From IMG/VR virus record IMGVR_UViG_3300047319_000106, positions 1,483-65,482 of that record: a DNA stretch of 64,000 nt. One strand, 5' to 3'. A program made the position numbers and the translations under genes. Of the stretch, positions 2,878-64,000 are shown piece by piece; position 1 is the first letter of the stretch; each line of letters starts with the position of its first letter. The DNA comes from a virus. Lineage: Duplodnaviria; Caudoviricetes. The notes beneath the pieces are model-generated. The model did not search any database. It saw nothing but the letters and a program-made list of their open reading frames with translations, and had not been told where the DNA came from.

Positions 2878-3349
2878 TCTTCGTCTTCGCGATTTCCGAG
2901 CCGACCAAGCCCGCGACGAGCGCGGCACCGAGAACGCGCTTGATTTCGTGCTCGTTGTGCAGCACAGCCGGACCGAGGAAGGGGCGCGGCGGAATCTTTT
3001 CTGTGCCGAGTTCTTGATACTTGGCGATGTCGGATTCGGAGCCGATCACCGCGTCGAATGCGTGCACCTCGTTTTTTATCGAGTCGCGCAGATCGCCGGA
3101 GCGCAAGAGCGGGTCGTTCTCAGTGAAGCCTTTCGCGACGCGATCGGCTTTCGTCGAGTCTGCCAGTTCAGGCCACGCGCCGAACTGCCCGATTGCCGGC
3201 TGATAATGGCCGACTTCGCTTTTCGCCGTGTCGCGCACGGCGTTTGCCACGGTTTGAAGCCCCGCTCGCATGGCAAGCACGACCGCAGCTTCGCGTGCTA
3301 CCAGGTGAGCGACGAAGCCGCCGATGCTTGTGAATTCTTTCGCGTTCAC
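2870..3349 (-). CDS. Virion morphogenesis/tail completion protein (HK97 gp10-like)
   Basis: Motifs LLRSGDLRDSI and YQELGTEKIPPRPFLGP. Confidence 0.75.
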   Translation of the reverse strand: MNAKEFTSIGGFVAHLVAREAAVVLAMRAGLQTVANAVRDTAKSEVGHYQPAIGQFGAWPELADSTKADRVAKGFTENDPLLRSGDLRDSIKNEVHAFDAVIGSESDIAKYQELGTEKIPPRPFLGPAVLHNEHEIKRVLGAALVAGLVGSEIAKTKIS

Positions 3350-3350
3350 G

Positions 3351-3527
3351 TCACTCCTTCACGAATTCCATTCGGTTGTAATCGAACTTGTTGCCTTCGA
3401 ACTCGGAGAACTTGATACAGAACGCGGCGCGCGTGACGTCATCGAGCGAGAACGCCAAATCGAACGGCACGCCGTTTTTCACAAGCCATAGCGCCTCGCT
3501 GATCGGAACGGAGCGCGCTAGTTTTTT
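3351..3527 (-). CDS. Tail assembly chaperone frameshift extension (gpT-like)
   Basis: -1 frame after A AAA AAC reads KLARSVPISEALWLVKNGVPFDLAFSL...VKE*, has no evident start of its own. Confidence 0.7.
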   Translation of the reverse strand, partial: KKLARSVPISEALWLVKNGVPFDLAFSLDDVTRAAFCIKFSEFEGNKFDYNRMEFVKE

Positions 3528-3910
3528 ACTTCAGCCTGCGCTTCTTCCGGGTCTTGCTGCGCGCCGAAGTTCTCCGACACCGCATTCATCACCGCCGCAA
3601 CGCCTTCTTCGTCGAGGCGCGTAATCAGCGCTTCGATTTCGCGCTCGGTGTTCGGCGCGGCAACTGCCCGGCCGTCGATCGCGGTGATGTAGGTGAACGG
3701 CAGCACCATGTTCATATAGACCACGTTGCGCGCGGCGTCGCCTAGCATCTTCACGAGACGAAACGACGACAGAACGCCCGGCCGTTTCAGCGTCACCGCG
3801 AAGCCGTTCGGCGTTTGAATCGTGACTTCGGCGGCGGCTTTCTTCACGAGCGCGTCGCTCGGCGTTTCGGTTCCTGCTGCGGCTTTCTTGCGGACGTTCA
3901 CAGTCGTCAT
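3518..3910 (-). CDS. Tail assembly chaperone (gpG-like)
   Basis: 130 aa immediately after the tube gene, ends in a slippery heptamer. Confidence 0.75.
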   Translation of the reverse strand: MTTVNVRKKAAAGTETPSDALVKKAAAEVTIQTPNGFAVTLKRPGVLSSFRLVKMLGDAARNVVYMNMVLPFTYITAIDGRAVAAPNTEREIEALITRLDEEGVAAVMNAVSENFGAQQDPEEAQAEVKN

Positions 3911-16799: not shown

Positions 16800-17225
16800 A
16801 TGGACGCGCAACAGGTAGCAAAAGCGATTGCCGCCGCTGATTGGAGCGGCGTGTCCATCGGAAACAAGGCGATTCTCTGCAAAGCCGTCGAGCTTCTCGC
16901 CGCCCCTCTCGCCAATCCGAGCGACACGCAGGAGGCGGCGCTAGCCGAGCGAAGAATTGGCTACATGGCAGGCGTCAAAGCAGAACGCGAACACTGTGCC
17001 GCTCTCGCCCAGTCCGCAGAGCAAGACAGGATTGATGCGGAGAGGTATCGCTTCCTCCGCGACAAGATGCGCTTTTCCTCGCCTCCCGGCGATATTCCGA
17101 CCATGACGCTGAGCGCTCCGCTCGAAGCGCCGACGCATGACACGCATAAGGATTGGATCAGCGATCGCTTTGATGCCAGCGTGGACCGCACCATCGACGC
17201 AGCAATGGAGCGAGAAAATGACTGA
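16800..17225 (+). CDS. Mosaic early protein (DAERYR-type)
   Basis: GGAGG SD; C-terminal half identical to the ORF starting at 63450. Confidence 0.7.
   Translation: MDAQQVAKAIAAADWSGVSIGNKAILCKAVELLAAPLANPSDTQEAALAERRIGYMAGVKAEREHCAALAQSAEQDRIDAERYRFLRDKMRFSSPPGDIPTMTLSAPLEAPTHDTHKDWISDRFDASVDRTIDAAMEREND
17002..17170 (+). repeat. Direct repeat copy 1 (copy 2 at 63832-64000)
   Basis: 168/169 nt identical; single mismatch 17043 A vs 63873 C. Confidence 0.95.
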
Positions 17226-17904
17226 CGACGAACGTTTGGCGCTTGCCGAGCGCGCGTGGATGGAGAACCGGCACGATGAACGCGCGTATCTGCTTGCATT
17301 CGCCCGCGCCCTCGAATCCCGCGTATTGGCGGAGAGGCAGCCGAGCGCGAAAGATCAGGCGCGCCGCTTCGTGAGCGACTTCACGAGAGAAATGGGCTTC
17401 GCGATGAGCGACCATGCGCAAGAAGTGATGCTCAATCTGTTCCTGCGGAACGTCGCCCACCCCACGCCGGATGATGCAAGCCAAAGCGCGAATTCGAGTT
17501 CTGTCGCGGAATCAGTCACTTGCGCTGCGCCGGATGATGCACTGAATAAGCTAACGGCCGAAATGCATCGCCTGCGCGGGGAGATTGAAAAGTATCAGGG
17601 CGTTTGCGCCGCCGCTTATCAATTCGTCGGAGCTGTAGATGGCCCCGTGCGTTTCCTCGATGCGCTGTCGAATGCGGCCAATGGCGAGCCTGCTTCGGTA
17701 GAGGATTCGCTTGCTCTGCTTCCGGCTGAACCGAGCGAGCGGATCGCGGGGATGGAGAAGGATGCGGAGCGGTATCGGCACATCCGCGCAACGACGCGAG
17801 CCATCCGCGACGACAACGGCGAGAACCGAACGGAAGTCACGCCGGAGCAATTCGACGCCGCCATCGATGCCACCATCGCAAAGGAGCCGAAATGCGCAAG
17901 CTGA
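17218..17904 (+). CDS. Mosaic early hypothetical protein
   Basis: 228 aa, includes a second KDAERYR...DAAID module. Confidence 0.65.
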   Translation: MTDDERLALAERAWMENRHDERAYLLAFARALESRVLAERQPSAKDQARRFVSDFTREMGFAMSDHAQEVMLNLFLRNVAHPTPDDASQSANSSSVAESVTCAAPDDALNKLTAEMHRLRGEIEKYQGVCAAAYQFVGAVDGPVRFLDALSNAANGEPASVEDSLALLPAEPSERIAGMEKDAERYRHIRATTRAIRDDNGENRTEVTPEQFDAAIDATIAKEPKCAS

Positions 17905-18041: not shown

Positions 18042-18320
18042 ATGATCCGCTGGCTGACAATATCCAAATTCGCCTCCGAGAGCGGCTACAGTGAGAAAGC
18101 GATCCGGCGCAAAATCGAAGATCGCATCTGGCAGGAAGGGAGCATCTGGCGCAAGGCGCCGGACGGCCGCATCATGATCAACACAGAAGGATATGAAGAA
18201 TGGGTCGAGCGGGGCGGGGTGTTAAGGCAGGTTCAGCCACGAGTATCGAAATCACGTTCCAGTACAACGGAAAGCGCTGCCGCGAGCGCATCCCGTTGCC
18301 TCCTACAGCCGCTAACCTAA
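18042..18320 (+). CDS. xis: Excisionase
   Basis: Winged-helix Xis-like SGYSEKAIRRKI...W.EG..WRKAPDGRIMIN, overlaps int start. Confidence 0.8.
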   Translation: MIRWLTISKFASESGYSEKAIRRKIEDRIWQEGSIWRKAPDGRIMINTEGYEEWVERGGVLRQVQPRVSKSRSSTTESAAASASRCLLQPLT

Positions 18321-19405
18321 AGCGCGCCGAGCAGCACCGCGCAAACATCCTCTACGAGATCTCGCGCGGCACCTTCGACTATGCCCAAGTCTTCCCGAAG
18401 TCGGATCGCGCGCGCGAGCATGCGCGGCTCCCAGGCGACGTGTTGCTCACAGGGAAGTACCTAGAGGAATGGTTTGACAGGAAGAAACCGAAGCTGGCGG
18501 CAAGCACGCGCCGCGACTGGAACGGAATCGTCCTGAATCTGCTGATCCCGAAGTTCAAGGAAACAGCCCTCTCCGCGCTCACGCGCCGCGACATCAAGAA
18601 GTGGCTTGAGGATCTCGACCTGACGCGCACCAAGGCGCTCTCGAACAAGCGCCTGGCGAACATCCAGACGGTCATTCGGGTGGCGCTCGGCGATGCCGTC
18701 GAAGACGGTCTAGTCGAGGCGAATGTGCTGGGCGGCTACACGTACTCGCGAGAGTTGCCGCAGCACATCGAGGAGCATGACGAGGACACCGTCGATCCGT
18801 TCTCGATTGAGGAGCAGTCGGCAATTCTCAAGGAGCTTGCACCTCAGACCGCGAACTTCATCAAATTCGCGATCTGGTCTGGGCTTCGAACGAGCGAACT
18901 CATTGCACTGAACTGGCGAGATGTCGATTGGCGAAAGGGATTTGTGCGCGTCAGAAAAGCGATGACGAAGGCGGCTAAGGGCGACGTCGAGACGACGAAG
19001 ACGCGCGCGGGCCGACGAGATGTGAAGCTTCTCGCGCCGGCGCTGGAGGCATTAAACGCTCAGAAGGCATTCACCTATCTGCAGAACGATGCCATCTTCC
19101 ATAATCCGAGAACAGGCACGCGGTGGACGGGCGACAACCAGATATGGGACGTCTGGCAGACGGCGATCCGCAAGGCGAAGGTCCGCTACCGGAAGCCGTA
19201 CAACACGCGGCACACGTATGCCTCGATGATGCTGTCCGCTGGCGAGCATCCGATGTGGGTAGCGAAGCAGATGGGGCACGCCGACACGGCGATGATCATG
19301 CGAGTCTACGGGCACTGGATGCCCGATGCCGACGCCTCTGCCGGCTCGAAGGCGGTCGCCATCTTCGCGGCGGTCCAGAAAAACGAGAATACCGGCACTG
19401 ACTGA
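18200..19405 (+). CDS. int: Tyrosine integrase with N-terminal arm-binding domain
   Basis: SGLRTSEL, YNTRHTYAS, QMGH...YGHW catalytic motifs. Confidence 0.95.
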   Translation: MGRAGRGVKAGSATSIEITFQYNGKRCRERIPLPPTAANLKRAEQHRANILYEISRGTFDYAQVFPKSDRAREHARLPGDVLLTGKYLEEWFDRKKPKLAASTRRDWNGIVLNLLIPKFKETALSALTRRDIKKWLEDLDLTRTKALSNKRLANIQTVIRVALGDAVEDGLVEANVLGGYTYSRELPQHIEEHDEDTVDPFSIEEQSAILKELAPQTANFIKFAIWSGLRTSELIALNWRDVDWRKGFVRVRKAMTKAAKGDVETTKTRAGRRDVKLLAPALEALNAQKAFTYLQNDAIFHNPRTGTRWTGDNQIWDVWQTAIRKAKVRYRKPYNTRHTYASMMLSAGEHPMWVAKQMGHADTAMIMRVYGHWMPDADASAGSKAVAIFAAVQKNENTGTD

Positions 19406-53670: not shown

Positions 53671-53760
53671 GCTTTACCTCCTCAGTTAAGAAAAAGAACA
53701 ACGATGAAACTCACTCAGAAGCGCGTGCGCTCCATGATGAGAACCCGCAGACAAAATCAG

Positions 53761-53964
53761 TCAGGCAGCGACTTTGGCCCGATCTCGCATAAGGCGACGG
53801 TGCAAGGCGACGAGCTTCCGCCCCTTCTCGTACCCGAAGGTCTTTTGTCTGGTTTGCCTCAGAACGTGGTTGACGGATGCCTGAGAAGCGCCGATGTTGA
53901 CGGCGATCTCGGTTTGCGTCAGGCCCGCGTCGAGGCAGTCGCGGATGAGTTGGCTCCAGTTCAT
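53761..53964 (-). CDS. cro: Cro-like repressor
   Basis: GLTQTEIAVNIGASQASV HTH, divergent from cI. Confidence 0.85.
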   Translation of the reverse strand: MNWSQLIRDCLDAGLTQTEIAVNIGASQASVNHVLRQTRQKTFGYEKGRKLVALHRRLMRDRAKVAA

Positions 53965-53971
53965 GAGCGTC

Positions 53972-54029
53972 ATATTAGCACGCTAATAGGCGGTGTCAAT
54001 AGCTATCTACTTGAGAAAACTAATATGAT
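53972..54029. promoter_or_regulatory. oR region: pR, pRM and operators
   Basis: Minus TTGACA-16-TAATAT; plus -10 TATGAT; palindrome TATTAG-CACG-CTAATA 53973-53988 and degenerate copies. Confidence 0.75.
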
Positions 54030-54036
54030 TCGCGCC

Positions 54037-54699
54037 ATGAGCATAGGTGACCGAATCCGTCAATTAAGGGAAAAGGCCGGACTTTCCCAGTCAGATCTCG
54101 CAATGAAAGCGGGCGTATCGCAAGGTACGATCAGCCAACTCGAGAAAAACCCCAATCAGAAGACGAAACACCTAGTCGCCATCGCGCGCGTCCTAGATTG
54201 TTCCGTCGATTGGCTCGAGAAAGGAACCGGCCCGATCGAGCGCCCCAAGAAGGTAGCAATCGTCCCGGACGAATCGGACGAGTTCATTGCAATAAGAAAA
54301 GTCGTGTTCAGAATCAGCGCTGGTGTAGCAGGCTTCGCCGTCGATTTCCTCGACGATGGTGACGGAGCGCCCCTTTTCTTCCAGAAGGCGTGGTTCGACG
54401 CTCGCGGTTACAGCCCGGACGAGCTGTACGCGATCAAGGTCCGTGGCGCCAGCATGGAACCCTCTCTGACTGACAGCGACACGGTTGTCGTGAACACCGC
54501 TGACAAAGAGCCGACCGACGGCGACGTCTTCGCCGTCAACTACGATGGCGAGCTCGTAATAAAGCGGCTAGTGCGCGACGCCGGTGACTGGTGGCTGTCT
54601 TCCGACAACCTGGACGCTCGGCGGTATCCGCGAAAGCGGTGCGACGACAACACGTTCGTTCTAGGCCGGATCGTCCACAAGCAGAGCGAACGCATTTGA
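54037..54699 (+). CDS. cI: CI-like repressor (XRE HTH + S24 peptidase)
   Basis: HTH LSQSDLAMKAGVSQGTISQLE; AG cleavage site, GASMEP, IKRL. Confidence 0.93.
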   Translation: MSIGDRIRQLREKAGLSQSDLAMKAGVSQGTISQLEKNPNQKTKHLVAIARVLDCSVDWLEKGTGPIERPKKVAIVPDESDEFIAIRKVVFRISAGVAGFAVDFLDDGDGAPLFFQKAWFDARGYSPDELYAIKVRGASMEPSLTDSDTVVVNTADKEPTDGDVFAVNYDGELVIKRLVRDAGDWWLSSDNLDARRYPRKRCDDNTFVLGRIVHKQSERI

Positions 54700-55897: not shown

Positions 55898-57031
55898 ATG
55901 GAAGCGAATCAACTGACAGTGATTCAGCGCGCGGCTGTCGCGCTGGGCGCAGCCGAGCACGAACGGAACATGATCGCGCTGTCGACGAAATACGCCGATC
56001 TGGTCGAGATCAAAAACGCGCCGGCACGCGATCAGGTTCATTCGGCCTATATGGAACTGAAGAACACGCGCGTCGCGATTCAGAAGGCAGCGAAGGACGC
56101 TCGCGAGGATGCGAACCAGTTCTCGAAGGCAGTGATTGCCGAGGCAGAGCGACTGACGTCCATCACTACGGCCGAGGAAGTTCGTTTGCAGGCTCTGAGA
56201 GACGAATGGGACGAAGCGCGCGAGGCTGAGAAGCGCGAGAAGGCAGAAGCAGAGGCCAATCGCGTCGCGGAGATCAAGGCGAAGATCGAAGCCTTCATGC
56301 TGAATGCGGTCACGGTGGCGTCGAAGTCGGCCGCAGAAATCGCCGCGCACGCCGACAGCCTCGACAAGATGGAGATCTCCATCGACGAGTTCGCTGAGTT
56401 CACCGGCGAGGCGCAGGCTAAGCAATACCAGACGGTCAAGTGGCTGCGTGAGCGGCACGCCGACGCGGTCGCGAAGGAGGCTGAAGCCAAGCGTCTTGAA
56501 GACGAACGCGCTGAACTCGCCCGACTGCGCGCCGAGCAGGAAGAGCGCGAGCGCAAGGCTGCAATCGCCCGCGCCGAAGAGGAGCGCCGAGCACGCGAGA
56601 TCCGCGAGCAGGAGGAAGCCGATCGACGCGAAGCGCAGCGCCGTGCTGACGAAGCGCTCCGCGCAGAACGCGAAGCGGCAGAAGCGAAGCTCCGCGCCGA
56701 GCGCGAGGCACACGAAGCCGAGATGCAGGCGCAGCGCGACGAGATTGCGCGGCAGCAGGCAGAGATCGCAGCAGAGCGGCGCAAGCAGGAAGAGGAATCC
56801 GCGGCTAAGCGTCGGGCCGAAGAGGCAGCAGCGCGCGCAGAAGCCGATCGAATCCGTGCCGAGCAAGACGCCAAGATCGCCGAGCAGAATCGCCGAGAGC
56901 TCGAACAGTTCATCGAGAACGGCCCGAGCGCAGACGACATCGTCGACGTGCTCGCCGCGCATTACGACGTCGAGCGAAAGCATGTCTTCCGCTGGCTACT
57001 GAATCTCACCACTGAAAGCATCCCCGCGTAA
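55898..57031 (+). CDS. Long coiled-coil recombination-module protein
   Basis: E/A/R-rich helix directly upstream of the RecT-like gene. Confidence 0.7.
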   Translation: MEANQLTVIQRAAVALGAAEHERNMIALSTKYADLVEIKNAPARDQVHSAYMELKNTRVAIQKAAKDAREDANQFSKAVIAEAERLTSITTAEEVRLQALRDEWDEAREAEKREKAEAEANRVAEIKAKIEAFMLNAVTVASKSAAEIAAHADSLDKMEISIDEFAEFTGEAQAKQYQTVKWLRERHADAVAKEAEAKRLEDERAELARLRAEQEERERKAAIARAEEERRAREIREQEEADRREAQRRADEALRAEREAAEAKLRAEREAHEAEMQAQRDEIARQQAEIAAERRKQEEESAAKRRAEEAAARAEADRIRAEQDAKIAEQNRRELEQFIENGPSADDIVDVLAAHYDVERKHVFRWLLNLTTESIPA

Positions 57032-57070
57032 ATCTACGACGCCCGACAGAGTCTCGGGCAAGGAGAAATC

Positions 57071-57880
57071 ATGTCTGACCTGATCCCGGCACAGTCCTTT
57101 GACCTGTCGCCCAAGTCGCTCGATGAAGCGCTGAAGTTCGCCGATTACCTCGCCGACTCCAGCATCGTGCCGAAGGACTTCATCGGCAAGCCCGGAAACA
57201 TCCTCGTCGCCATCCAGTGGGGTATGGAGCTCGGCCTGAAGCCGATGCAGGCGATGCAGAACATCGCCGTCATCAACGGCCGCCCGTCGCTCTGGGGCGA
57301 TGCCGTGCTCGCGCTGGTCCGTGCGTCGCCGCTCTGTGAATACGTCTACGAGACGTTCGAGAACGGCACCGCGACCTGCCGCGTGAAACGACGCGGCGAG
57401 GAAGAGCAGCTCCGGACGTTCGGCGAGGCTGATGCCAAGCAAGCCGGTCTGATCGGTAAGCAAGGGCCATGGGCGCAATACCCGAACCGCATGAAGCAGA
57501 TGCGCGCGCGTGCGTTTGCGCTGCGCGACGTCTTTCCTGACGTGTTGAAGGGCATGCCGATCGCCGAGGAAGTCGGCGACTACATGGAAGAGAAGGACAT
57601 CACGCCGCGCGGAAAGCCGTCACCTACGCAGATCGCTCAGAACGCCGCGCAGTCGTCGCGCCCGGAACGCACCGAACACCACGAGAAGATCATCAAGCAG
57701 CTCGAGGCGGTCGCGAAACAGTTTGGCTTCGAACCGTTTAAGGAAGAGTGGTCGAAGCTGCCGCGCGAAGATCGCGCCGCGATCGGCCTCGAAGAGCGCA
57801 ACCGCATTGGCAACCTCGCGAATGCGACGCCGGTCGAGCCGATGCAAACGCAGCGCGAACCGGGAGTGGACGATGAGTGA
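57071..57880 (+). CDS. recT: RecT-like single-strand annealing protein
   Basis: GMELGLKPMQAMQNIAVINGRP; W..YP.RM...RA..F..RD.FPD. Confidence 0.8.
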   Translation: MSDLIPAQSFDLSPKSLDEALKFADYLADSSIVPKDFIGKPGNILVAIQWGMELGLKPMQAMQNIAVINGRPSLWGDAVLALVRASPLCEYVYETFENGTATCRVKRRGEEEQLRTFGEADAKQAGLIGKQGPWAQYPNRMKQMRARAFALRDVFPDVLKGMPIAEEVGDYMEEKDITPRGKPSPTQIAQNAAQSSRPERTEHHEKIIKQLEAVAKQFGFEPFKEEWSKLPREDRAAIGLEERNRIGNLANATPVEPMQTQREPGVDDE

Positions 57881-58502
57881 GCAAATAGAACAGCGGACCG
57901 AGCAATGGTTCGCGCAACGCGCGGGGAAGGCTACGGCCTCTCGCTTCATCGACGTGGTCAGCCTGACAAAGGCTGGCAAGCCAACGGCAGGCCGCGAGCG
58001 CTACATGCGCGAGATCGTGTTCGAACGACTGAGCGGAACGCCGAAGCACTCGGTCGGCGCGCTGTCGCTGAAGTGGGGAACGGACGTCGAGCAGTTCGCT
58101 CGCGAGGCATACGAAGTTGAGTCGGGCGACGTCGTGAGCGAAACCGGCTTCGTGACGCATCCAGACTATCCGTTCATCGGCGGATCGTGCGATGGACTGA
58201 TCGGCGACGACGGGATCATCGAAATCAAGTGTCCGCACGACGAGCAGGTTCACATCGAAACGTGGCTGAACGGCATGTCGCCGGATCACCGTCCGCAAGT
58301 GCAAGGAAACCTCCTCGTGACGGGCCGCAAGTATGCGGTCTTCATCAGCTACGACCCGCGGCAGAACGAACGCTTCCGCCTCTACCACCAGCGCATCGAA
58401 CGCGATGACGCATATATCGATGGCGTGCTGCTGCCCGGCCTCCTGCAATTCAATGCCGAGGTCGAGCAGATGATCGCCGAACTGAACCGCCGAGCAGCTT
58501 GA
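57873..58502 (+). CDS. YqaJ/lambda-type exonuclease
   Basis: QRTEQWF..R.G..TAS, DGLI, EIKCP, QVQG. Confidence 0.9.
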   Translation: MSEQIEQRTEQWFAQRAGKATASRFIDVVSLTKAGKPTAGRERYMREIVFERLSGTPKHSVGALSLKWGTDVEQFAREAYEVESGDVVSETGFVTHPDYPFIGGSCDGLIGDDGIIEIKCPHDEQVHIETWLNGMSPDHRPQVQGNLLVTGRKYAVFISYDPRQNERFRLYHQRIERDDAYIDGVLLPGLLQFNAEVEQMIAELNRRAA

Positions 58503-58509
58503 GGTCGAC

Positions 58510-58719
58510 ATGAGCGAGATCGCCAACAAACGCGCGCTTCTGGAAAGCGCGAACGCACTGGTCAAGACGAATCAACCGACGATTGAGCACCTGAGCGCAG
58601 TTGCGGACGCTCTCGCTCGTGTCGCCAGCGACCTTATCGGCGCGGATTGCACGGCACTCCTGCGCGTGCGCCGTGGCGCCGTCGAGGCAGCAATCGAACG
58701 ACTCGGGAGCGCATCGTGA
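58510..58719 (+). CDS. Hypothetical protein
   Basis: GAGG SD, 69 aa. Confidence 0.55.
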   Translation: MSEIANKRALLESANALVKTNQPTIEHLSAVADALARVASDLIGADCTALLRVRRGAVEAAIERLGSAS

Positions 58720-58828
58720 GCGCCGTGGAAATCAGAAAGGCAGCCGCGCTTCAGAGCGCCGTGCTCGTCGTCTCCGTCGTCGGCTTCACGACGAGCGTCA
58801 TCGTCTTCCTCTCTCCGGGGATTCTGCA

Positions 58829-59029
58829 ATGAAAACGCCCGCACGAAACATGGATCTGCGCCACGTCGACACGTCCGCTCTGCTCTCGCCGTCCGAACGC
58901 CTCGCCGCGCGCAACGCCGGACGTCTGCAGAAGCTTCCGCGCCAGCCGATCAAGGTCGCAATCGGAAAGCTCTGGGTTCCCCCGAGCGTCGCCCGCCAGT
59001 TCGCCTACTTAAACGTCGGCGCCAAGTAA
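58829..59029 (+). CDS. Hypothetical protein
   Basis: ATGA-coupled to a small hydrophobic ORF at 58716-58832. Confidence 0.5.
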   Translation: MKTPARNMDLRHVDTSALLSPSERLAARNAGRLQKLPRQPIKVAIGKLWVPPSVARQFAYLNVGAK

Positions 59030-59048
59030 CTCCCGAAGGCTCTCACCT

Positions 59049-59201
59049 ATGACCGGCTATCTCGCCATCGCAGCGATGTGGATCTTCTTCGCCACCCTAG
59101 TCTGCTTGTTCATACACGGCGCGAAGAAAACGAAGCGCTCCATGAAGGCGATCGACGAGGCTCGCCGGGGCATTAAGTGGCCCGCGCCGCATAACGAATA
59201 A
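59049..59201 (+). CDS. Small membrane protein (50 aa)
   Basis: N-terminal transmembrane helix followed by a basic tail. Confidence 0.55.
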   Translation: MTGYLAIAAMWIFFATLVCLFIHGAKKTKRSMKAIDEARRGIKWPAPHNE

Positions 59202-59212
59202 ACGAGGAACAC

Positions 59213-59575
59213 ATGAAATTCATGAAAAACACGATCCGCGCGGCGCTCGTCGCGCTTGCCGCGTCCGCAGCAGTTCAGGCAGCTCACGCGGACATCATCA
59301 TGTACGCGAACAACGAGGCCGGCGGCCTCATTCAACTCTCGGATATGCCGTGCAGCAAGATCACCGGCTATCCCTCGCTGTCGAGCATGAGCGGATACGC
59401 CGCTTCGATCATCGATTCTGCTGGTGTTGCGCGCTTCATCGGCTGCTACCACTACGCCGAGCCGAACTTCTACGTCACCTGGAGCAATGGCAGTCAGCGC
59501 TTCTACCGCGCTGAAGGAATGACGCTCACGGCCGCCGGCAAGCGACTGCTGAGCCAGTTGAACTCTGGAAGCTGA
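59213..59575 (+). CDS. Secreted hypothetical protein
   Basis: Signal peptide ending AHA, two Cys, GAGGA SD. Confidence 0.7.
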   Translation: MKFMKNTIRAALVALAASAAVQAAHADIIMYANNEAGGLIQLSDMPCSKITGYPSLSSMSGYAASIIDSAGVARFIGCYHYAEPNFYVTWSNGSQRFYRAEGMTLTAAGKRLLSQLNSGS

Positions 59576-59582
59576 GGGAGCC

Positions 59583-60050
59583 ATGCAGCGCGAATTAGAG
59601 GTTCTCCGTCATGCGATCGGCTCCGACATCTACGGTCGAACACGCAGCGACCGGAACTACTTCATCACCGGACCAGGCTCGACCGATTACACGACGTGCG
59701 TCGCACTGGTCCAGCGCGGCCTGATGAACCGCACACCGGGCAATGCGATCACCGGCGGCGGCGATGTCTTCCGCGTGACCGACACGGGCCGACTCTTCGT
59801 ACGCGAGAACAGCGAGGTCGATCCGAATCGCGACTGGCTGGTGCTCGCACCGTGGAATGAGCCTTGGCAATACGACATGTGGTTCACGATTCGAGCGACC
59901 ACACGAGGCAAGGCGCGGTATCAGGCGTTTCTATACCTCAGAGAGGTCAACGACATGCCGAAGAGCGATCTGATCCGCATCCGCGTGAAAGCGGTGCCGC
60001 GCCCAAAAGCAACCGCCGACGACGCGGCGGACGACGACATGCCGTTTTGA
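59583..60050 (+). CDS. Hypothetical protein with SSB-like acidic tail
   Basis: RHAIG...RNYF motif; ends DDDMPF. Confidence 0.65.
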   Translation: MQRELEVLRHAIGSDIYGRTRSDRNYFITGPGSTDYTTCVALVQRGLMNRTPGNAITGGGDVFRVTDTGRLFVRENSEVDPNRDWLVLAPWNEPWQYDMWFTIRATTRGKARYQAFLYLREVNDMPKSDLIRIRVKAVPRPKATADDAADDDMPF

Positions 60051-60091
60051 CACCCCTGGCCCTGCGCCGGATAACGATTAAAGAGGACAGC

Positions 60092-61036
60092 ATGACTAAA
60101 TCTCTCGTGCTTCGCACCTGCCGTGCAGACATGACTTCGCAGAACGGATTCGTATGGCCCAACGTCGGCGGGATTGCGGAAGCGCCTGATTGGGAGGCAA
60201 CGCCCGAATGCGGGAATGGCCTGCACGGATGGCTCTATGGACAAGGCGACCATTCATGCAGCAGCTATCTCGACAGCACAGCGAAATGGCTCGTCGTCGA
60301 GGTCGATTCAGACCGCATCGCGATGCTCGGTGGTAAGTGCAAGTTTCCGATGGCAAAGGTTCTTTTCGTCGGAGGCAAGAAGGACGCCACCGATTACCTG
60401 CGCGAACATGAGCCGCGCTCTCGTGAGGTTGCGGTGATCGGCGCTCAACTCGTCGTCGGCGATGACGAAGCAGTGACTGTCGGCGCCCTCGGCACGGCAA
60501 CGGCTGGCGACAGCGGCACGGCAACGGCTGGCGACAGCGGCACGGCAACGGCTGGCGACAGCGGCACGGCAACGGCTGGCGACAGCGGCACGGCAACGGC
60601 TGGCTACAGAGGCACGGCAACGGCTGGCAACAGCGGCACGGCAACGGCTGGCTACAGAGGCACGGCAACGGCTGGCGCCCTCGGCACGGCAACGGCTGGC
60701 GACAGCGGCACGGCAACGGCTGGCGACAGCGGCACGGCAACGGCTGGCGACAGCGGCACGGCAACGGCTGGCGACAGCGGCACGGCAACGGCTGGCTACA
60801 GAGGCACGGCAACGGCTGGCGACAGCGGCACGGCAACGGCTGGCTACAGAGGCACGGCAACGGCTGGCGCCCTCGGCACGGCAACGGCTGGCGACAGAGG
60901 CGAAATCAGAATTCGTTATTGGGATTCGAAGGCCGAACGCTATCGCACAGTCATTGGCTACATCGGCGAAGACGGTCTGCTCCCCGGCGTCAAATACCGT
61001 CTCGACGACAACCATAAGTTCGTCAAGGCCGAATGA
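60092..61036 (+). CDS. Octapeptide-repeat protein
   Basis: N-terminal CGNGLHG...KCKF domain, 17 GTATAGxx repeats, C-terminal YIGEDGL.PGV.Y. Confidence 0.85.
   Translation: MTKSLVLRTCRADMTSQNGFVWPNVGGIAEAPDWEATPECGNGLHGWLYGQGDHSCSSYLDSTAKWLVVEVDSDRIAMLGGKCKFPMAKVLFVGGKKDATDYLREHEPRSREVAVIGAQLVVGDDEAVTVGALGTATAGDSGTATAGDSGTATAGDSGTATAGDSGTATAGYRGTATAGNSGTATAGYRGTATAGALGTATAGDSGTATAGDSGTATAGDSGTATAGDSGTATAGYRGTATAGDSGTATAGYRGTATAGALGTATAGDRGEIRIRYWDSKAERYRTVIGYIGEDGLLPGVKYRLDDNHKFVKAE
60491..60898 (+). repeat. 17 x 24-bp coding tandem repeat
   Basis: Invariant GGCACGGCAACGGCTGGC plus 6 variable nt. Confidence 0.97.
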
Positions 61037-61248
61037 TCCGCCACCTTCACGCTTTCCGCGCCCTGCTCGAATCCCTCGAAGCGCTCGGGCTCGCTCGGAA
61101 GCCGACGACACAACAGACGCACGCGCTCTGTCAGAGATTCGTGGAGATGGTCGCGGAGCTGATGGGGCAGCGCGTGACGATCTGGATTGGCGAAACACCT
61201 ATTGCGAGAACACCAAATGAAATTCGGAAGCGTGTGCAGCGGTATTGA
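61033..61248 (+). CDS. Hypothetical protein
   Basis: ATGA-coupled, 71 aa. Confidence 0.5.
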   Translation: MIRHLHAFRALLESLEALGLARKPTTQQTHALCQRFVEMVAELMGQRVTIWIGETPIARTPNEIRKRVQRY

Positions 61249-62452
61249 AGCGGCGAGCTGCGCCTGGCATCCGCTCGGATGGCAAACGCAGTTCGTCAGC
61301 GAGATCGAGCCGTTTCCCTCCGCCGTGCTCGAGAACCACTACCCGACCGTGCCGAACCGCGGCGACATGACCCAATTCAAGGAATGGCCTGATGCAGCTA
61401 TCGATCTTCTCGTCGGAGGAACTCCCTGCCAAAGCCTCAGCGTCGCCGGACTCCGAAAAGGACTGGCTGACCCGCGTGGCAATCTCATGCTCACCTATCT
61501 TGCCATTGCTGCACGATTCGCTCCCCGCTGGCTGGTCTGGGAAAACGTCCCCGGTGTCCTGTCTTCAAACGGCGGACGGGATTTTGGAACCTTGCTCGGA
61601 GGGTTGGCAGAACTCGGGTATGGGTTCGCCTACCGCGTTCTTGACGCTCAATTCTTCGGAGTGGCCCAGCGACGCCGCCGTGTGTTCGTTGTCGGACATC
61701 TTGGAGACTGGCGACGTGCCGCAGCGGTACTTTTTGAGCGCGAAAGCCTGCTCGGGCATCCTGCGCCGCGCCGGGAATCGCGGCAAGGAGTTGCCCCGAC
61801 CCTTAGCGCACGCACTAAAGGCGGTGGCGGACTCGGAACCGACTTTGAGTGCGATGGCGGCTTGATTGCGCACTCGCTGCGCGGAGAAGGCTTTGATGCG
61901 AGCGAGGACGGAACCGGGCGCGGTACGCCGCTCGTGCCGTGTCAACCATACACGCTCGCGATTCGAGGCCGTGACGATGGGCACGCGCTCGAGTATCGAC
62001 AGGACGGGACTGCGAACGCGATCCTGACGCCGAACGGCGGTCGTGGCGGCATTGGCGTTGGTGCAGTTGCATTCGACCTTCAGCAGATCACCAGCGCTGA
62101 GAACCGGTCGCGCGTCGCACCAGGCCCGACGCCGACGCTGACAAAGGGAAGCGCGCTTCATGCGATCGCCGACACGCTAACGAGCTCGTGGCACAACTCG
62201 AACGGCGCGAGCGCCGGGAACAACGCGGGCGTCATCAACCCGGTCTTTCAGGGGTCGGCCGTGCGCCGCCTGACGCCCCGCGAGTGCGAGCGGCTTCAAG
62301 GCTTCCCAGACGACTACACGCTGATCAATGTGCGCGGCAAGCCTGCCGCTGACGGACCGCGATATAAGGCGCTCGGCAATAGCATGGCCGTGCCTGTGAT
62401 GCGCTGGATCGGCGAGCGTATTCAAAAGGTCGATGCGCTCAGCGCGTCTTGA
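61217..62452 (+). CDS. C5 cytosine DNA methyltransferase
   Basis: CSGIEA, GGTPCQ, WENV, QRRRRVF, RRLTPRECERLQGFPD, ALGNS. Confidence 0.95.
   Translation: MKFGSVCSGIEAASCAWHPLGWQTQFVSEIEPFPSAVLENHYPTVPNRGDMTQFKEWPDAAIDLLVGGTPCQSLSVAGLRKGLADPRGNLMLTYLAIAARFAPRWLVWENVPGVLSSNGGRDFGTLLGGLAELGYGFAYRVLDAQFFGVAQRRRRVFVVGHLGDWRRAAAVLFERESLLGHPAPRRESRQGVAPTLSARTKGGGGLGTDFECDGGLIAHSLRGEGFDASEDGTGRGTPLVPCQPYTLAIRGRDDGHALEYRQDGTANAILTPNGGRGGIGVGAVAFDLQQITSAENRSRVAPGPTPTLTKGSALHAIADTLTSSWHNSNGASAGNNAGVINPVFQGSAVRRLTPRECERLQGFPDDYTLINVRGKPAADGPRYKALGNSMAVPVMRWIGERIQKVDALSAS
61392..61865 (+). CDS. Nested +1-frame protein resembling M.EcoHK31I beta polypeptide
   Basis: AAGGA SD upstream; WQNSGM...EWPS...CSLSDILE...YFLS..AC.GILRRA..RGK.LP. 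Confidence 0.6.
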   Translation: MQLSIFSSEELPAKASASPDSEKDWLTRVAISCSPILPLLHDSLPAGWSGKTSPVSCLQTADGILEPCSEGWQNSGMGSPTAFLTLNSSEWPSDAAVCSLSDILETGDVPQRYFLSAKACSGILRRAGNRGKELPRPLAHALKAVADSEPTLSAMAA

Positions 62453-62482
62453 CGATTGGACAGACTGTTATTGCGAGAGAAC

Positions 62483-62719
62483 ATGGCAACCGTACAAATC
62501 CGAGTCGTTCAGTGGGAAGACAAGCCTGACACGATGGGCGCCAAGCTTCGCGGCCTGCGCAGAGATGCGGGCCTGACGCAGACCCAGCTTGCCGAGAAAG
62601 TCGGGCTTTCGTGGAAGACGGTTCAGAGCATCGAGCTAAACATCTATTCGCCGTGCTGGAAGAACTTCACGAAGCTCGCGCGGTTCTTCAACGTCTCTCT
62701 CGATTGGTTGGCGGAATGA
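62483..62719 (+). CDS. XRE-family HTH regulator
   Basis: GLTQTQLAEKVGLS...IE...P......LA.FF.VSLDWL. Confidence 0.85.
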   Translation: MATVQIRVVQWEDKPDTMGAKLRGLRRDAGLTQTQLAEKVGLSWKTVQSIELNIYSPCWKNFTKLARFFNVSLDWLAE

Positions 62720-63447
62720 GGTTTTTCACCGGACTCCACCAGCCATCGGACGCGAAGCACTTCGATGCCGCGTTCGTCAGTGTGAATCGGCTGCGGGATC
62801 GGAAGTCCGGGTTTGAGGTTGGCGACTGGATCATGGACAGCGGCGCGTTCACCGAGATTTCGCAGCACGGGCATTACCGGCACGAGGTCGGCGACTACGC
62901 GGCGCAGATCAAGCGCTGGAGCACGAACGGCAACATGCTAGCCGCTGTCTCGCAGGACTTCATGTGTGAGGCGTGGATCGTCGAGAAGACCGGGCTGAGC
63001 GTCGAGATTCACCAGCAGCTCACGATCGAGCGATACGACGCGCTGATGCAGTGCGACGTCGGTGGGGCCTACATCATGCCGGTGCTGCAAGGCTACGACC
63101 CGCAGGATTACGTGCGGCACATCGAGATGTACGGAGACCGCCTCGCGCACGGCGCATGGGTCGGAGTTGGATCAGTCTGCAAGCGGAACGGCGATCCGCG
63201 CGCGATCGAGAACGTGCTGTTGGCGATTCATGCGAAGCGGCCCGATCTCCGACTGCACGGTTTCGGCCTGAAGTCTACTGCGCTGTCGTCGTGGATCGTG
63301 ACGGAGCTGCTACATACCGCTGACTCGATGGCATGGAGCTTTCACGCTCGTATCAACGGACGAAACGGTAACGACTGGAAAGAGGCAAAAGCATGGACGG
63401 ACAAGATAAACAGACGCCCGATGCAATACGGGCTGTTCATGGAGTGA
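62716..63447 (+). CDS. TGT/DpdA-like base-exchange transglycosylase
   Basis: MDSGAF, QDFMCE, PVLQG, GVGS, LHGFG, ADSMAW motifs. Confidence 0.7.
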   Translation: MRFFTGLHQPSDAKHFDAAFVSVNRLRDRKSGFEVGDWIMDSGAFTEISQHGHYRHEVGDYAAQIKRWSTNGNMLAAVSQDFMCEAWIVEKTGLSVEIHQQLTIERYDALMQCDVGGAYIMPVLQGYDPQDYVRHIEMYGDRLAHGAWVGVGSVCKRNGDPRAIENVLLAIHAKRPDLRLHGFGLKSTALSSWIVTELLHTADSMAWSFHARINGRNGNDWKEAKAWTDKINRRPMQYGLFME

Positions 63448-63449
63448 AA

Positions 63450-64000
63450 ATGGAACACGCTGATGCAGTGAAACTCATCAAAGATTACGGCTTCGCCGTG
63501 CTGAAGCATCAGAACAACTGGCTTGGCGACGCATACGAGGCGCTGCTTCGCGCCCTTCTCTCCGCGAGCATCGCCGACACAGCGGGGGCGAAGCCGATCT
63601 ATCAGGTTCAAGACCCATGCGAAGCGACGTGGGAAGACACGGACTGGCTCACGTACAAAAGTACAGATGGCGCTTTCGCCCGCATCGTCTACGCCGCCCC
63701 TCCCGTCACTCCGAGCGACAAGCAAGAGGCGGTGGCGCAAGTTGACGAAGGTGACGACGGCCTGTTCGTCGAAATCCTGCATGGCCCGAACGGTTCGCCA
63801 TTGAAGCGCGGAGACAAGCTCTACGCCGCCCCTCTCGCCCAGTCCGCAGAGCAAGACAGGATTGATGCGGAGCGGTATCGCTTCCTCCGCGACAAGATGC
63901 GCTTTTCCTCGCCTCCCGGCGATATTCCGACCATGACGCTGAGCGCTCCGCTCGAAGCGCCGACGCATGACACGCATAAGGATTGGATCAGCGATCGCTT
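63450..64000 (+). CDS. Mosaic early protein (3' end outside window)
   Basis: GGAG SD; YAAP and DAERYR modules, shares C-terminal part with 16800-17225. Confidence 0.7.
   Translation, partial: MEHADAVKLIKDYGFAVLKHQNNWLGDAYEALLRALLSASIADTAGAKPIYQVQDPCEATWEDTDWLTYKSTDGAFARIVYAAPPVTPSDKQEAVAQVDEGDDGLFVEILHGPNGSPLKRGDKLYAAPLAQSAEQDRIDAERYRFLRDKMRFSSPPGDIPTMTLSAPLEAPTHDTHKDWISDR
63832..64000 (+). repeat. Direct repeat copy 2, runs off window end
   Basis: 168/169 nt identical to 17002-17170. Confidence 0.95.

What the first reader, a model, noticed from the sequence alone, without database searches (positions are those of the whole stretch)
61217..63447. Orphan TGT/DpdA-like gene clustered with a methyltransferase and XRE regulator: candidate DNA-modification module
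Seen: a 243-aa protein with DSGAF, PVLQG, HGFG and DS motifs is ATGA-coupled to an XRE gene directly after the dual-coded MTase. No folE, queD, queE or queC is in the window. Known: TGT and DpdA exchange guanine for 7-deazaguanine bases in tRNA or DNA, and lytic phages usually carry the precursor genes. Inference: a temperate phage scavenging host preQ0/preQ1, or exchanging another base, to protect DNA alongside 5mC or to alter host tRNA.
Basis: partly seen in the sequence, partly recalled or inferred. Interest (0 to 1): 0.78.

Follow-up and report, generated by a model that had tools for sequence, protein, structure and literature searches.

The report
Stand-alone DpdA gene in temperate phage
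This is a real gene for a DpdA-type enzyme that swaps guanine in DNA for a modified base; the phage has none of the genes that make that base, an arrangement already described in other phages, so it is an ordinary new member of a known group.

Summary
ORF 62716-63447 (243 aa) is ATGA-coupled to an XRE gene that follows a C5 methyltransferase. It matches Pfam DpdA (PF23859, E 2e-41) and phrog_1279. The model (pLDDT 95) is a TGT-type barrel, closest to the solved DpdA 7UI4 (Z 19.8). The catalytic Asp residues are kept, and dN/dS is 0.01-0.07. It lacks the zinc/Ins8 subdomain.

No QueC, QueD, QueE-type radical SAM, FolE, QueF, TGT or ParB/DpdB match was found in the 65.5-kb virus record.

The protein belongs to the singleton-DpdA subfamily of Mycobacterium phage Orion and Sinorhizobium phage phiLM21. 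It is only marginally like the proven preQ0 insertases of CAjan and Rosebush. Salvage of host preQ0 by such phages has been proposed in print since 2016 and 2019.

A Caballeronia turbans prophage carries a 99%-identical copy. That genome has QueC, QueD, FolE, QueF and TGT.

Linkage to the C5 methyltransferase (2 of 25 virus records) and to XRE (4 of 19 loci) is not conserved. However, 15 of 30 long homologues are DpdA-DNA methyltransferase fusions, and 3 of 25 records put a YhhQ-type transporter beside DpdA.

Verdict: new member of a known kind. Its biochemistry is untested, and the only assayed subfamily member (Orion) showed no modification.

The parts
61187..62452 (+). Orphan C5 cytosine DNA methyltransferase (421 aa), two genes upstream of DpdA in the same operon
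   Evidence: PF00145 E 1.2e-52, TIGR00675 E 6.9e-52, phrog_116 E 1.2e-91. Best PADLOC match is MTase_II, E 3.6e-59. I did not look for a restriction endonuclease gene.
62456..62719 (+). XRE-family helix-turn-helix protein (87 aa from TTG; an ATG at about 62484 would give about 78 aa). Its stop overlaps the DpdA start (ATGA).
   Evidence: PF01381 HTH_3 E 2.4e-10. ATGA seen. Homologous XRE directly upstream of DpdA in L003/L015 and L016, and downstream of DpdA in L017. dN/dS 0.13-0.15.
62716..63447 (+). Stand-alone minimal DpdA-family DNA guanine transglycosylase (243 aa). Predicted catalytic residues: D41 (acid/base), D81 (base recognition), Q125-G126, D203 (nucleophile). No zinc/Ins8 subdomain.
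   Evidence: PF23859 E 2.1e-41, 142 bits against a cut-off of 27. phrog_1279 E 7.8e-66. AF2 pLDDT 95.4, pTM 0.91. 7UI4 DpdA Z 19.8, rmsd 3.3 A over 229 residues. Residue conservation. dN/dS 0.012-0.073.
63444..63998 (+). Downstream ORF of unknown function, in frame from the ATG that overlaps the DpdA stop. It runs off the window and contig end, and its 3' part repeats at about 16.9-17.2 kb of the window.
   Evidence: ORF 63393-63998 open at its 3' end. No Pfam, PHROG or PADLOC family. tblastn match of its residues 99-202 to 16893-17168. Homologue after DpdA in L003, L015 and L016.

Best explanation
The gene encodes a functional, stand-alone, minimal DpdA-family DNA transglycosylase of the Orion/phiLM21 'singleton' subfamily. 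It lies in the early-left (cI-recombination-int) operon of a temperate phage, probably of Burkholderiaceae. Shown here: family membership, the TGT/DpdA barrel fold, conservation of the catalytic Asp pair and the base-recognising Asp, strong purifying selection, absence of all precursor genes from the virus record, and presence of the preQ0 pathway in a lysogen genome that carries a 99%-identical copy. Inferred: after induction or infection the enzyme is made from the early operon. It then works like other DpdA enzymes. [quoted passage not shown] D41 then helps a free 7-deazaguanine base made by the host (preQ0, possibly preQ1) to take its place. This gives partial, motif-dependent substitution that blunts host restriction, alongside 5mC from the co-transcribed orphan Dcm-type methyltransferase. 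The XRE protein is most likely a small regulator that travels with the gene in this lineage, not a required part of the enzyme.
For: Family and fold: PF23859 E 2.1e-41. phrog_1279 E 7.8e-66. AF2 pLDDT 95.4. Top Foldseek hit is 7UI4 'DNA preQ0 insertase DpdA', E 7.9e-6. VIA Z is 19.8 for 7UI4, 19.6 for ArcTGT 1IQ8 and about 18 for bacterial and human TGTs.

Active site: the family profile aligns SADSmAW to the 7UI4 segment with nucleophile D256, VLQG to VAHG (H181-G182) and GVGSV to MGGMV. Residue roles are taken from passages of PMC10164549. D81, G126, G152, H181 and S204 are invariant, and D41, Q125 and D203 are >=90% conserved, in 46 sequences.

Constraint: dN/dS is 0.012 against L003 (dS 0.60), 0.042 against L016 and 0.073 against L017.

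No precursor genes: 0 matches in the record for QueC, QueD, FolE, QueF, TGT and Radical_SAM. QueC was found in 0 of 25 DpdA-bearing virus and phage records. Host Que-protein tblastn hits were found in 0 of 29 sequences.

Host supply: the C. turbans LMG 29316 genome, whose prophage DpdA is 99% identical, has QueC at 226 bits, QueD at 109, FolE at 249, QueF at 70.5 and TGT at 540. QueC was found in 99 of 121 genomes of that family, including all 4 with a DpdA-profile match.

Link to 7-deazaguanine salvage: a Vut_1/YhhQ-family gene lies next to DpdA in 3 of 25 records (phiLM21 gp26, L024, L034). PMC6884629 names YhhQ as the preQ0 transporter.

Link to DNA: 15 of 30 homologues of 427-2000 aa carry a DNA methyltransferase domain (14 PF02086, 1 PF01555). 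One of them also carries PF00145. D81 and D203 are kept in 15 of 15 long forms checked, and D41 in 14 of 15.

Operon: CI-like repressor, RecT-like, YqaJ and integrase genes lie on the same strand. No promoter-like site was found between 58400 and 64000.
Against: No biochemical evidence exists for this subfamily. The family profile matches Orion DpdA strongly (E 1.7e-65), but matches the proven insertases of Rosebush (17 bits) and CAjan (14.8 bits) only marginally, and Salmonella phage 7-11 not at all. Orion, the only assayed member, had no 7-deazaguanine in its DNA (<6 per 10^6 nt). The authors expected this because M. smegmatis lacks the pathway (PMC6884629 passages). About 400 Mycobacterium phage records keep this gene (398 of 407 tblastn hits) in a host said to lack preQ0. 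That is hard to explain if host preQ0 is the only substrate.

The protein lacks the zinc site and the Ins8 insertion that bacterial DpdA is thought to use on DNA. No ParB-like DpdB is present.

The window's own host is unknown, because the record comes from a metagenome. The C. turbans prophage shares only the XRE-DpdA block with it at the DNA level.

Sequence search of the PDB gave nothing with the single protein, and only E 0.22 for 7UI4 with the profile. The link to solved enzymes therefore rests on Pfam and on the fold.
Confidence: 0.6

Rival explanations
1. The Orion/phiLM21-type minimal DpdA has diverged in function. It exchanges or removes a base using a substrate other than host preQ0/preQ1 (another purine analogue, or an environmental 7-deazapurine such as queuine), or it acts as a glycosylase-like enzyme on DNA. 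In this case the host Q pathway is irrelevant.
For: The subfamily is kept in 398 Mycobacterium phage records, and that host is reported to have none of the Q genes. Orion DNA is unmodified. PMC6884629 itself says more study is needed on whether singleton DpdAs have functionally diverged. The profile is only marginally similar to proven insertases. The zinc/Ins8 part is missing. The pocket has Q-G where bacterial DpdA has H-G.
Against: All three active-site Asp residues and the stacking Phe are conserved as in TGT and DpdA. YhhQ-type precursor transporters sit beside the gene in 3 of 25 records. Hosts outside Mycobacterium mostly have QueC. Q-G at that position is the arrangement I recall from bacterial TGT, which binds 7-deazaguanines (recalled, not from a call).
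Confidence: 0.2
2. It is a lysogenic-conversion or defence gene. Expressed from the prophage, it marks the host chromosome (or the prophage) with a 7-deazaguanine as a self-label, or to interfere with superinfecting phages, in the manner of the bacterial Dpd system.
For: Bacterial DpdA marks self DNA in the Dpd restriction-modification system (PMC10164549 passages). TGT homologues are reported in BREX-related defence loci (PMC12839542 passages). The gene is carried by proviruses.
Against: No PADLOC model matches the protein at E <= 0.01. No DpdB-like ParB is in the record. No promoter-like site of its own was found. The gene sits inside the early-left operon between the recombination and integrase genes, which I expect to be repressed in a lysogen (inference). 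No restriction partner was seen among neighbours in 19 loci.
Confidence: 0.1
3. It modifies host or phage tRNA, like TGT, to tune translation during infection.
For: The fold and catalytic residues are shared with tRNA-guanine transglycosylases. This was the early proposal for phage TGT-like genes (PMC5699537 passage).
Against: PF01702 TGT does not match anything in the record. The protein lacks the zinc subdomain and any C-terminal RNA-binding domain. The lysogen genome already has a TGT at 540 bits. Half of the long homologues are fused to DNA methyltransferases. Every DpdA tested so far is reported to insert preQ0 into DNA (PMC10516641 passage).
Confidence: 0.05
4. It is a decaying passenger gene with no function.
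For: Orion shows no modification. The protein is shorter than the Pfam model: it matches profile positions 5-225 of 291.
Against: dN/dS is 0.012-0.073 with dS up to 1.9. Catalytic residues are conserved. There are 6097 homologues at E <= 0.001 and 1723 representative clusters at 50% identity. The model is confident and folds completely.
Confidence: 0.03

Closest known systems
Singleton DpdA of Mycobacterium phage Orion (the 'third group' of Hutinet et al. 2019, phages with only dpdA)
   Same: Same subfamily: 38% identity over 222 aa, E 1e-36, with all motifs shared. The family profile matches it at E 1.7e-65 over the full length. No precursor genes are in the phage.
   Different: Orion's host is reported to lack the preQ0 pathway, and Orion DNA is unmodified. 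Here the probable host lineage has the pathway. Here the gene is flanked by an XRE gene and a C5 methyltransferase.
Sinorhizobium phage phiLM21 gp25 (annotated queuine tRNA-ribosyltransferase)
   Same: The closest phage-record homologue: 56.8% identity over 95% of the query. It is a temperate phage. The gene is solo, lies in the early region, and has a DNA methyltransferase two genes away.
   Different: phiLM21 has a Vut_1/YhhQ-like gene directly after DpdA, which the window lacks. Its methyltransferase is said to have CcrM-like specificity (title of a reference seen), not C5. It has no XRE neighbour.
Phage DpdA1 with a co-encoded preQ0 pathway (Escherichia phage CAjan, Mycobacterium phage Rosebush, phage 9g)
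   Same: Same Pfam superfamily and presumed chemistry. These are proven to put preQ0 or G+ into about 25-32% of G in phage DNA and to protect against restriction.
   Different: Only marginal profile similarity: 14.8 and 17 bits, over the last third of the protein only. Those phages carry folE, queD, queE and queC, and the window has none.
Bacterial DpdA of the Dpd restriction-modification island (Salmonella Montevideo, PDB 7UI4)
   Same: Best structural match: Z 19.8, rmsd 3.3 A over 229 residues. It has equivalent catalytic Asp residues.
   Different: 14% identity. The bacterial enzyme has about 413 residues, with Ins8 and a zinc site, and needs the ParB-like ATPase DpdB. The window protein has 243 residues, no Cys after D203, no DpdB in the record and no PADLOC match.
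tRNA-guanine transglycosylases (bacterial TGT, archaeal ArcTGT)
   Same: TIM-barrel fold and DSG.F / Q-G / D-nucleophile motifs. Z is 18-19.6.
   Different: PF01702 does not match. The protein has no N-terminal beta-lid, no zinc subdomain and no C-terminal/PUA domains. Identity is 9-12%.

Membership tests
DpdA family (Pfam PF23859, DeoxyPurine in DNA protein A) | Match to the family HMM above the curated threshold | tested here: met
   142.3 bits against a cut-off of 27, E 2.1e-41, residues 3-215 on profile positions 5-225 of 291. phrog_1279 E 7.8e-66.
DpdA family (Pfam PF23859, DeoxyPurine in DNA protein A) | TGT-type (beta/alpha)8 barrel | tested here: met
   AF2 pLDDT 95.4, pTM 0.91. The top Foldseek and VIA matches are 7UI4 DpdA, ArcTGT and TGTs: Z 19.8 to 18 over 225-231 of 243 residues. 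Caveat: TIM barrels in general score high (866 of 1000 chains had Z >= 8), but every top row is a TGT or DpdA.
DpdA family (Pfam PF23859, DeoxyPurine in DNA protein A) | Catalytic Asp pair (general acid/base and nucleophile) plus the base-recognising Asp | tested here: met
   D203 aligns with the 7UI4 nucleophile segment. D41 lies in DSGAF with F45 four residues on, the same spacing as D95/F99. D81 is invariant. The equivalence of D41 and D81 is by motif and conservation, not by superposed coordinates.
DpdA family (Pfam PF23859, DeoxyPurine in DNA protein A) | Exchange of guanine in DNA for a 7-deazaguanine base | not testable with these tools
   Needs LC-MS/MS of DNA. No member of this subfamily has been shown to be active; Orion was negative.
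Bacterial Dpd system DpdA (bDpdA) | Ins8 insertion with a structural zinc site | tested here: not met
   Only 40 residues follow D203, and none of them is Cys. In 7UI4 the corresponding insertion spans residues 256-383.
Bacterial Dpd system DpdA (bDpdA) | ParB-like ATPase partner DpdB and the dpd restriction genes nearby | tested here: not met
   PF02195 gave 0 matches in the record. No PADLOC model matched the protein.
Phage DpdA1 with its own pathway (CAjan, 9g, Rosebush type) | Co-encoded folE, queD, queE and queC (or gat-queC) | tested here: not met
   0 matches in the record for PF01227, PF01242, PF04055 and PF06508.
Phage DpdA1 with its own pathway (CAjan, 9g, Rosebush type) | Close sequence relationship to the proven insertases | tested here: not met
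   The family profile scores 14.8 bits on CAjan and 17 bits on Rosebush, over positions 136-213 only.
Singleton DpdA subfamily (Orion/phiLM21 type) | Full-length similarity to Orion and phiLM21 DpdA, with no Q-pathway gene in the phage | tested here: met
   Profile E 1.7e-65 for Orion and 1.9e-100 for phiLM21. BLASTP 38% and tblastn 56.8% identity. QueC found in 0 of 25 related records.
tRNA-guanine transglycosylase (PF01702) | Match to the TGT HMM; zinc site; tRNA-binding parts | tested here: not met
   PF01702 had no match in the record at E <= 0.001. It did not appear in the Pfam scan of the protein.

The most novel reading that the evidence does not exclude
The Orion/phiLM21-type minimal DpdA (no zinc/Ins8 part, no DpdB, often fused to Dam-type or N4/N6 DNA methyltransferases) is a separate class of DNA base-exchange enzyme. 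On this reading its natural substrate is not host preQ0. It would install a still unidentified base, or salvage an environmental 7-deazapurine through YhhQ-type transporters. That would explain why hundreds of mycobacteriophages keep it in a host that makes no 7-deazaguanine. The Burkholderiaceae phage here would be a tractable member in which to find that base.
Probability: 0.15. Interest if true: 0.7.

Novelty: new member of a known kind. Interest (0 to 1): 0.3.

Why it matters
The gene adds nothing new in kind. Singleton DpdA phages were catalogued in 2019 (76 phages), the family has a Pfam model, and close homologues in Paraburkholderia and Caballeronia already carry the DpdA name in public records.

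Its use is practical. The one assayed member of this subfamily (Orion) grows in a host without preQ0, so whether singleton DpdAs work by scavenging has never had a fair test. A temperate Burkholderiaceae phage, or the 99%-identical prophage copy in the type strain C. turbans LMG 29316, offers a host with the full pathway.

Two side observations may interest specialists. DpdA-DNA methyltransferase fusions are frequent (15 of 30 long homologues). YhhQ-type transporters recur beside the gene. Both support a DNA-modification role that uses salvaged precursors.

Tried and rejected
Sequence search of the PDB with the single protein found nothing. With the family profile, 7UI4 reached only E 0.22, and the best hit was a de novo TIM barrel. 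I used that result only for residue correspondence.

NCBIfam has no model that matches the protein, and PADLOC has none either.

Megablast of 56000-64000 against phage records found no phage sharing the DpdA region. The only hits were Burkholderia phages over the RecT-like gene and Roseobacter phages over the methyltransferase.

I considered a conserved three-gene module and rejected it:
- C5 MTase is present in 2 of 25 records.
- N6_N4 MTase is present in 1 of 25, about 5.6 kb from DpdA by my arithmetic on the coordinates.
- D12 MTase is present in 0 of 25.
- An XRE neighbour is present in 4 of 19 loci.

In a second set of 10 viral loci, an N6_N4-like segment lies just upstream of DpdA in 2 (L050, L052). 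MTase-like segments lie about 4-5 kb away in 2 more (L053, L057). The fused form itself was not recovered there.

The three fusion proteins looked up (P0123, P0128, P0179) are each one-member clusters seen on one contig. Any single one could therefore be a gene-calling artefact. The argument rests on their number and on the different sources.

The neighbour survey used only same-strand ORFs of at least 60 aa within 2.5 kb, chosen greedily by length. ORFs running off a locus end, or overlapped by a longer ORF, were dropped; L005's GPA gene is one example. The 5 ORFs of L037 and 3 of L033 were left out to fit the limit of 150. The survey is a rough tally.

The host QueE is inferred. The ORF lies between QueC and QueD, and it scores 29.3 bits on Radical_SAM against a cut-off of 29.5.

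Sequencing runs: only one run, probably the source metagenome, holds the stretch. The RNA-type rows hold 5-6% of the sampled words. I laid no reads, so I make no statement on expression or habitat.

I sent no complex prediction for XRE with DpdA, because the report does not claim that they bind.

Supplementary files of PMC6884629 and PMC10516641 (the lists of phages with only DpdA) were not opened. I therefore cannot say whether phiLM21 or any Burkholderia phage is already listed there.

Print searches. I found no passage on DpdA-methyltransferase fusions in the passages I read from PMC6884629 (the word 'methyltransferase' occurs 0 times), PMC5699537 and PMC12839542. The other papers listed were not opened.


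Full report
What is there. The window is bases 1483-65482 of a 65,482-nt virus record from a collection of uncultivated viral genomes. ORF 62716-63447 on the + strand gives a 243-aa protein. Its ATG overlaps the stop of an 87-aa ORF (62456-62719) as ATGA. That upstream ORF is an XRE-type helix-turn-helix protein (PF01381, E 2.4e-10). The ORF before it (61187-62452, 421 aa) is a C5 cytosine DNA methyltransferase (PF00145, E 1.2e-52). The DpdA stop also overlaps an in-frame ATG of the following ORF (63444 onward, read from the translations). That ORF has no family match and runs off the contig end.

Identity. The protein matches Pfam DpdA (PF23859) at 142 bits against a cut-off of 27 (E 2.1e-41), and phrog_1279 at E 7.8e-66. 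NCBIfam and PADLOC have no matching model, and the TGT model PF01702 does not match the record.

An AlphaFold2 model built on a 46-sequence alignment is very confident (mean pLDDT 95.4, pTM 0.91). Its best Foldseek hit in the PDB is 7UI4, the DNA preQ0 insertase DpdA (E 7.9e-6), followed by archaeosine TGT and many bacterial TGTs. With VIA-align, 7UI4 gives Z 19.8 (rmsd 3.3 A over 229 residues), 1IQ8 gives Z 19.6, and the TGTs give about Z 18.

Active site. Passages of Gedara et al. 2023 (PMC10164549) give the roles of residues in the Salmonella enzyme:
- Asp95 is the general acid/base.
- Asp130 and His181 contact the base.
- Phe99 and Leu236 stack on the base.
- Asp256 is the nucleophile.
- There is a structural zinc site, and a 128-residue insertion (Ins8) starts after Asp256.

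The family profile aligns the window's SADSMAW segment (D203) with the 7UI4 segment that holds the nucleophile. It aligns VLQG (Q125-G126) with VAHG, and GVGSV with MGGMV. D41 in DSGAF has F45 four residues on, the same spacing as Asp95 and Phe99.

In the 46-sequence alignment D81, G126, G152, H181 and S204 are invariant, and D41, S42, Q125, D203 and W207 are at least 90% conserved. Only 40 residues follow D203, and none is Cys, so the zinc/Ins8 part is absent. A few homologues carry a Cys-rich insert at that place, which looks like a remnant. This is a minimal DpdA barrel.

Is it functional? Against three relatives with DNA in hand, dN/dS is 0.012 (L003: amino-acid identity 98.8%, nucleotide identity 90.3%, dS 0.60), 0.042 (L016) and 0.073 (L017). 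The family is large. There are 6097 proteins at E <= 0.001 among 6264 candidates in the 90%-clustered set, with the top 120 all at least 71% identical. There are 1723 representative clusters at 50% identity, of which 202 score at E <= 1e-30. Named close homologues come from Caballeronia, Paraburkholderia and Burkholderia and are labelled DpdA-family protein. This is a working gene, not a relic.

Which DpdA? tblastn against phage records found 407 records, all under 60% identity. The best is Sinorhizobium phage phiLM21 (56.8%), then a Rhizobium phage and two Microcystis phages, and then 398 Mycobacterium phage records at about 40%.

I scored the family profile on the phages that have been assayed. 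Orion matches over the full length (E 1.7e-65), and phiLM21 at E 1.9e-100. The proven insertases of Rosebush and CAjan reach only 17 and 14.8 bits, over the last third of the protein. Salmonella phage 7-11 is not matched. Pairwise, the window protein and Orion DpdA are 38% identical over 222 residues, with every motif shared.

The gene therefore belongs to the singleton subfamily that Hutinet et al. 2019 set apart. Their 'third group' of 76 phages encodes DpdA but no precursor genes. [quoted passage not shown] The 2016 review says the same of Orion (PMC5699537 passage). Orion DNA had no 7-deazaguanine, which the authors expected because M. smegmatis lacks the pathway. Phage 7-11 had 50 dADG per 10^6 nt.

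Precursor supply. The virus record has no match to QueC, QueD, FolE, QueF, TGT or Radical_SAM and none to ParB_N, the fold of DpdB. QueC is found in 0 of 25 DpdA-bearing virus and phage records, 4 of which are at least 90% complete. tblastn with the lysogen's Que proteins hits none of 29 sequences.

A scan of species genomes found a 99%-identical copy in Burkholderia (Caballeronia) turbans LMG 29316. That genome has QueC (226 bits), QueD (109 bits) with a radical-SAM ORF between them (29.3 bits, just under the cut-off of 29.5), FolE (249 bits), QueF (70.5 bits) and TGT (540 bits).

In 121 genomes of the same family, QueC was found in 99. The DpdA profile was found in 4 of the 120 that could be scored, and all 4 have QueC. 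The window's own host is not known. Its RecT-like region resembles Burkholderia thailandensis phages. The C. turbans prophage shares only the XRE-DpdA block with it (window 62465-63560, 88% nucleotide identity) plus a short stretch near 17.5 kb.

Genomic setting. On the same strand lie a CI-like repressor (53704-54699, HTH_3 plus Peptidase_S24), a RecT-like gene, a YqaJ exonuclease and, after the wrap noted below, a tyrosine integrase (18200-19405). DnaB is on the other strand. No sigma-70-like promoter was found between 58400 and 64000, and I saw no convincing + strand terminator after the gene. I read this as a lambda-like early-left operon, so the enzyme would be made on induction or infection. 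That is an inference.

My tblastn of the downstream ORF onto 16893-17168 and the L003 match at 17527-17723 fit with the operon continuing there.

Is there a module? Mostly not.
- A C5 methyltransferase is in 2 of 25 related records: the window and its closest fragment L016, which has the same MTase-XRE-DpdA order. One genome contig (L004) has C5 MTase, a 130-aa ORF, then DpdA.
- An N6_N4 MTase is in 1 of 25 records, and a D12 MTase in 0 of 25.
- An XRE homologue sits upstream in L003/L015 and L016, and downstream in L017.
- Among 150 same-strand ORFs within 2.5 kb in 19 loci, the commonest families are XRE-type HTH (4), C5 methylase (3), Vut_1 (3) and HNH (3). There are no Que genes.

The gene therefore moves as a single cassette through mosaic early regions.

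Two recurrent links are still informative. First, 15 of 30 homologues of 427-2000 aa carry a DNA methyltransferase domain: 14 have D12-class PF02086 and 1 has PF01555. One 1551-aa protein combines C5 MTase, DpdA and D12 MTase. I confirmed two of these by hmmscan. D81 and D203 are kept in 15 of 15 long forms checked, and D41 in 14 of 15; the exception lacks that part. Second, a Vut_1/YhhQ-family gene lies beside DpdA in 3 of 25 records: phiLM21 gp26 (annotated hypothetical), L024 and L034. Hutinet et al. 2019 call YhhQ the preQ0 transporter. Together these links point to DNA as the target and to salvaged 7-deazaguanine precursors as the substrate.

Mechanism proposed. Shown: family, fold, catalytic residues, selection, lack of precursor genes, and a pathway-competent lysogen genome. 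Inferred: early expression; double-displacement exchange of G for host preQ0 (or preQ1) in duplex phage DNA, without DpdB; partial, motif-dependent substitution; and protection from restriction together with 5mC from the neighbouring orphan methyltransferase. I put this at about 0.6.

The main rival (0.2) is that this subfamily uses another substrate or has another activity. Hundreds of mycobacteriophages keep the gene in a host without 7-deazaguanine synthesis, and it is only marginally similar to the proven insertases. A lysogen-marking or defence role (0.1), a tRNA role (0.05) and decay (0.03) are less likely, for the reasons listed under the rivals.

Verdict. The gene is a new member of the known singleton-DpdA kind. 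What remains open is the biochemistry of the whole subfamily, and a Burkholderiaceae host with an intact Q pathway would be a fair place to test it.

Supplementary tables of the two Hutinet papers were not seen. The host is inferred. No reads were laid.

Noticed in passing
window 61392-61865 (+), inside the methyltransferase gene: The out-of-frame nested 157-aa ORF has no Pfam match, but it hits phrog_16143 (E 1.7e-8) and phrog_1008 (E 0.003), both labelled DNA methyltransferase. This could mean that other GC-rich phages annotate this alternative frame, or that the frame is truly conserved. It is a separate finding of this scan (e1-6233458).
   Followed up: partly
proteins P0276-P0299, P0123 and P0128 (no window coordinates): DpdA-DNA methyltransferase fusion proteins are common among long homologues: 15 of 30. 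One is a 1551-aa protein with C5 MTase, DpdA and D12 MTase domains. I found no mention of such fusions in the passages I read.
   Followed up: partly
L001 8771-9298 (phiLM21 gp26); L024 8626-9210; L034 about 3106-3609: Genes annotated as hypothetical next to singleton DpdA match Pfam Vut_1, the YhhQ family of queuosine-precursor transporters: E 2e-12, 1.6e-11 and 4.1e-12.
   Followed up: partly
window 59864-61036 (+): The repeat-rich early protein matches DUF7666 (E 4.9e-10) at its N-terminal part and DUF4774 (E 4.9e-8) in the octapeptide array. It was noted earlier in the scan as an ice-nucleation-like array (e1-6233457).
   Followed up: no
window 63832-64000 and 16893-17170: The ORF after DpdA runs off the contig end. 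Its last 104 residues match 16893-17168 at 64% amino-acid identity.
   Followed up: partly
L018 5263-7221; protein P0274: In one lineage DpdA is followed directly by a family A DNA polymerase, and one 600-aa protein is called as a DpdA-PolA fusion. That may be read-through of adjacent genes rather than a true fusion.
   Followed up: no
fold search of the DpdA model (rank 22): The TGT-like Cap10 of a CBASS complex (PDB 9ntn) appears among the structural matches. This is a reminder that TGT-fold enzymes can also attach deazaguanines to proteins.
   Followed up: no
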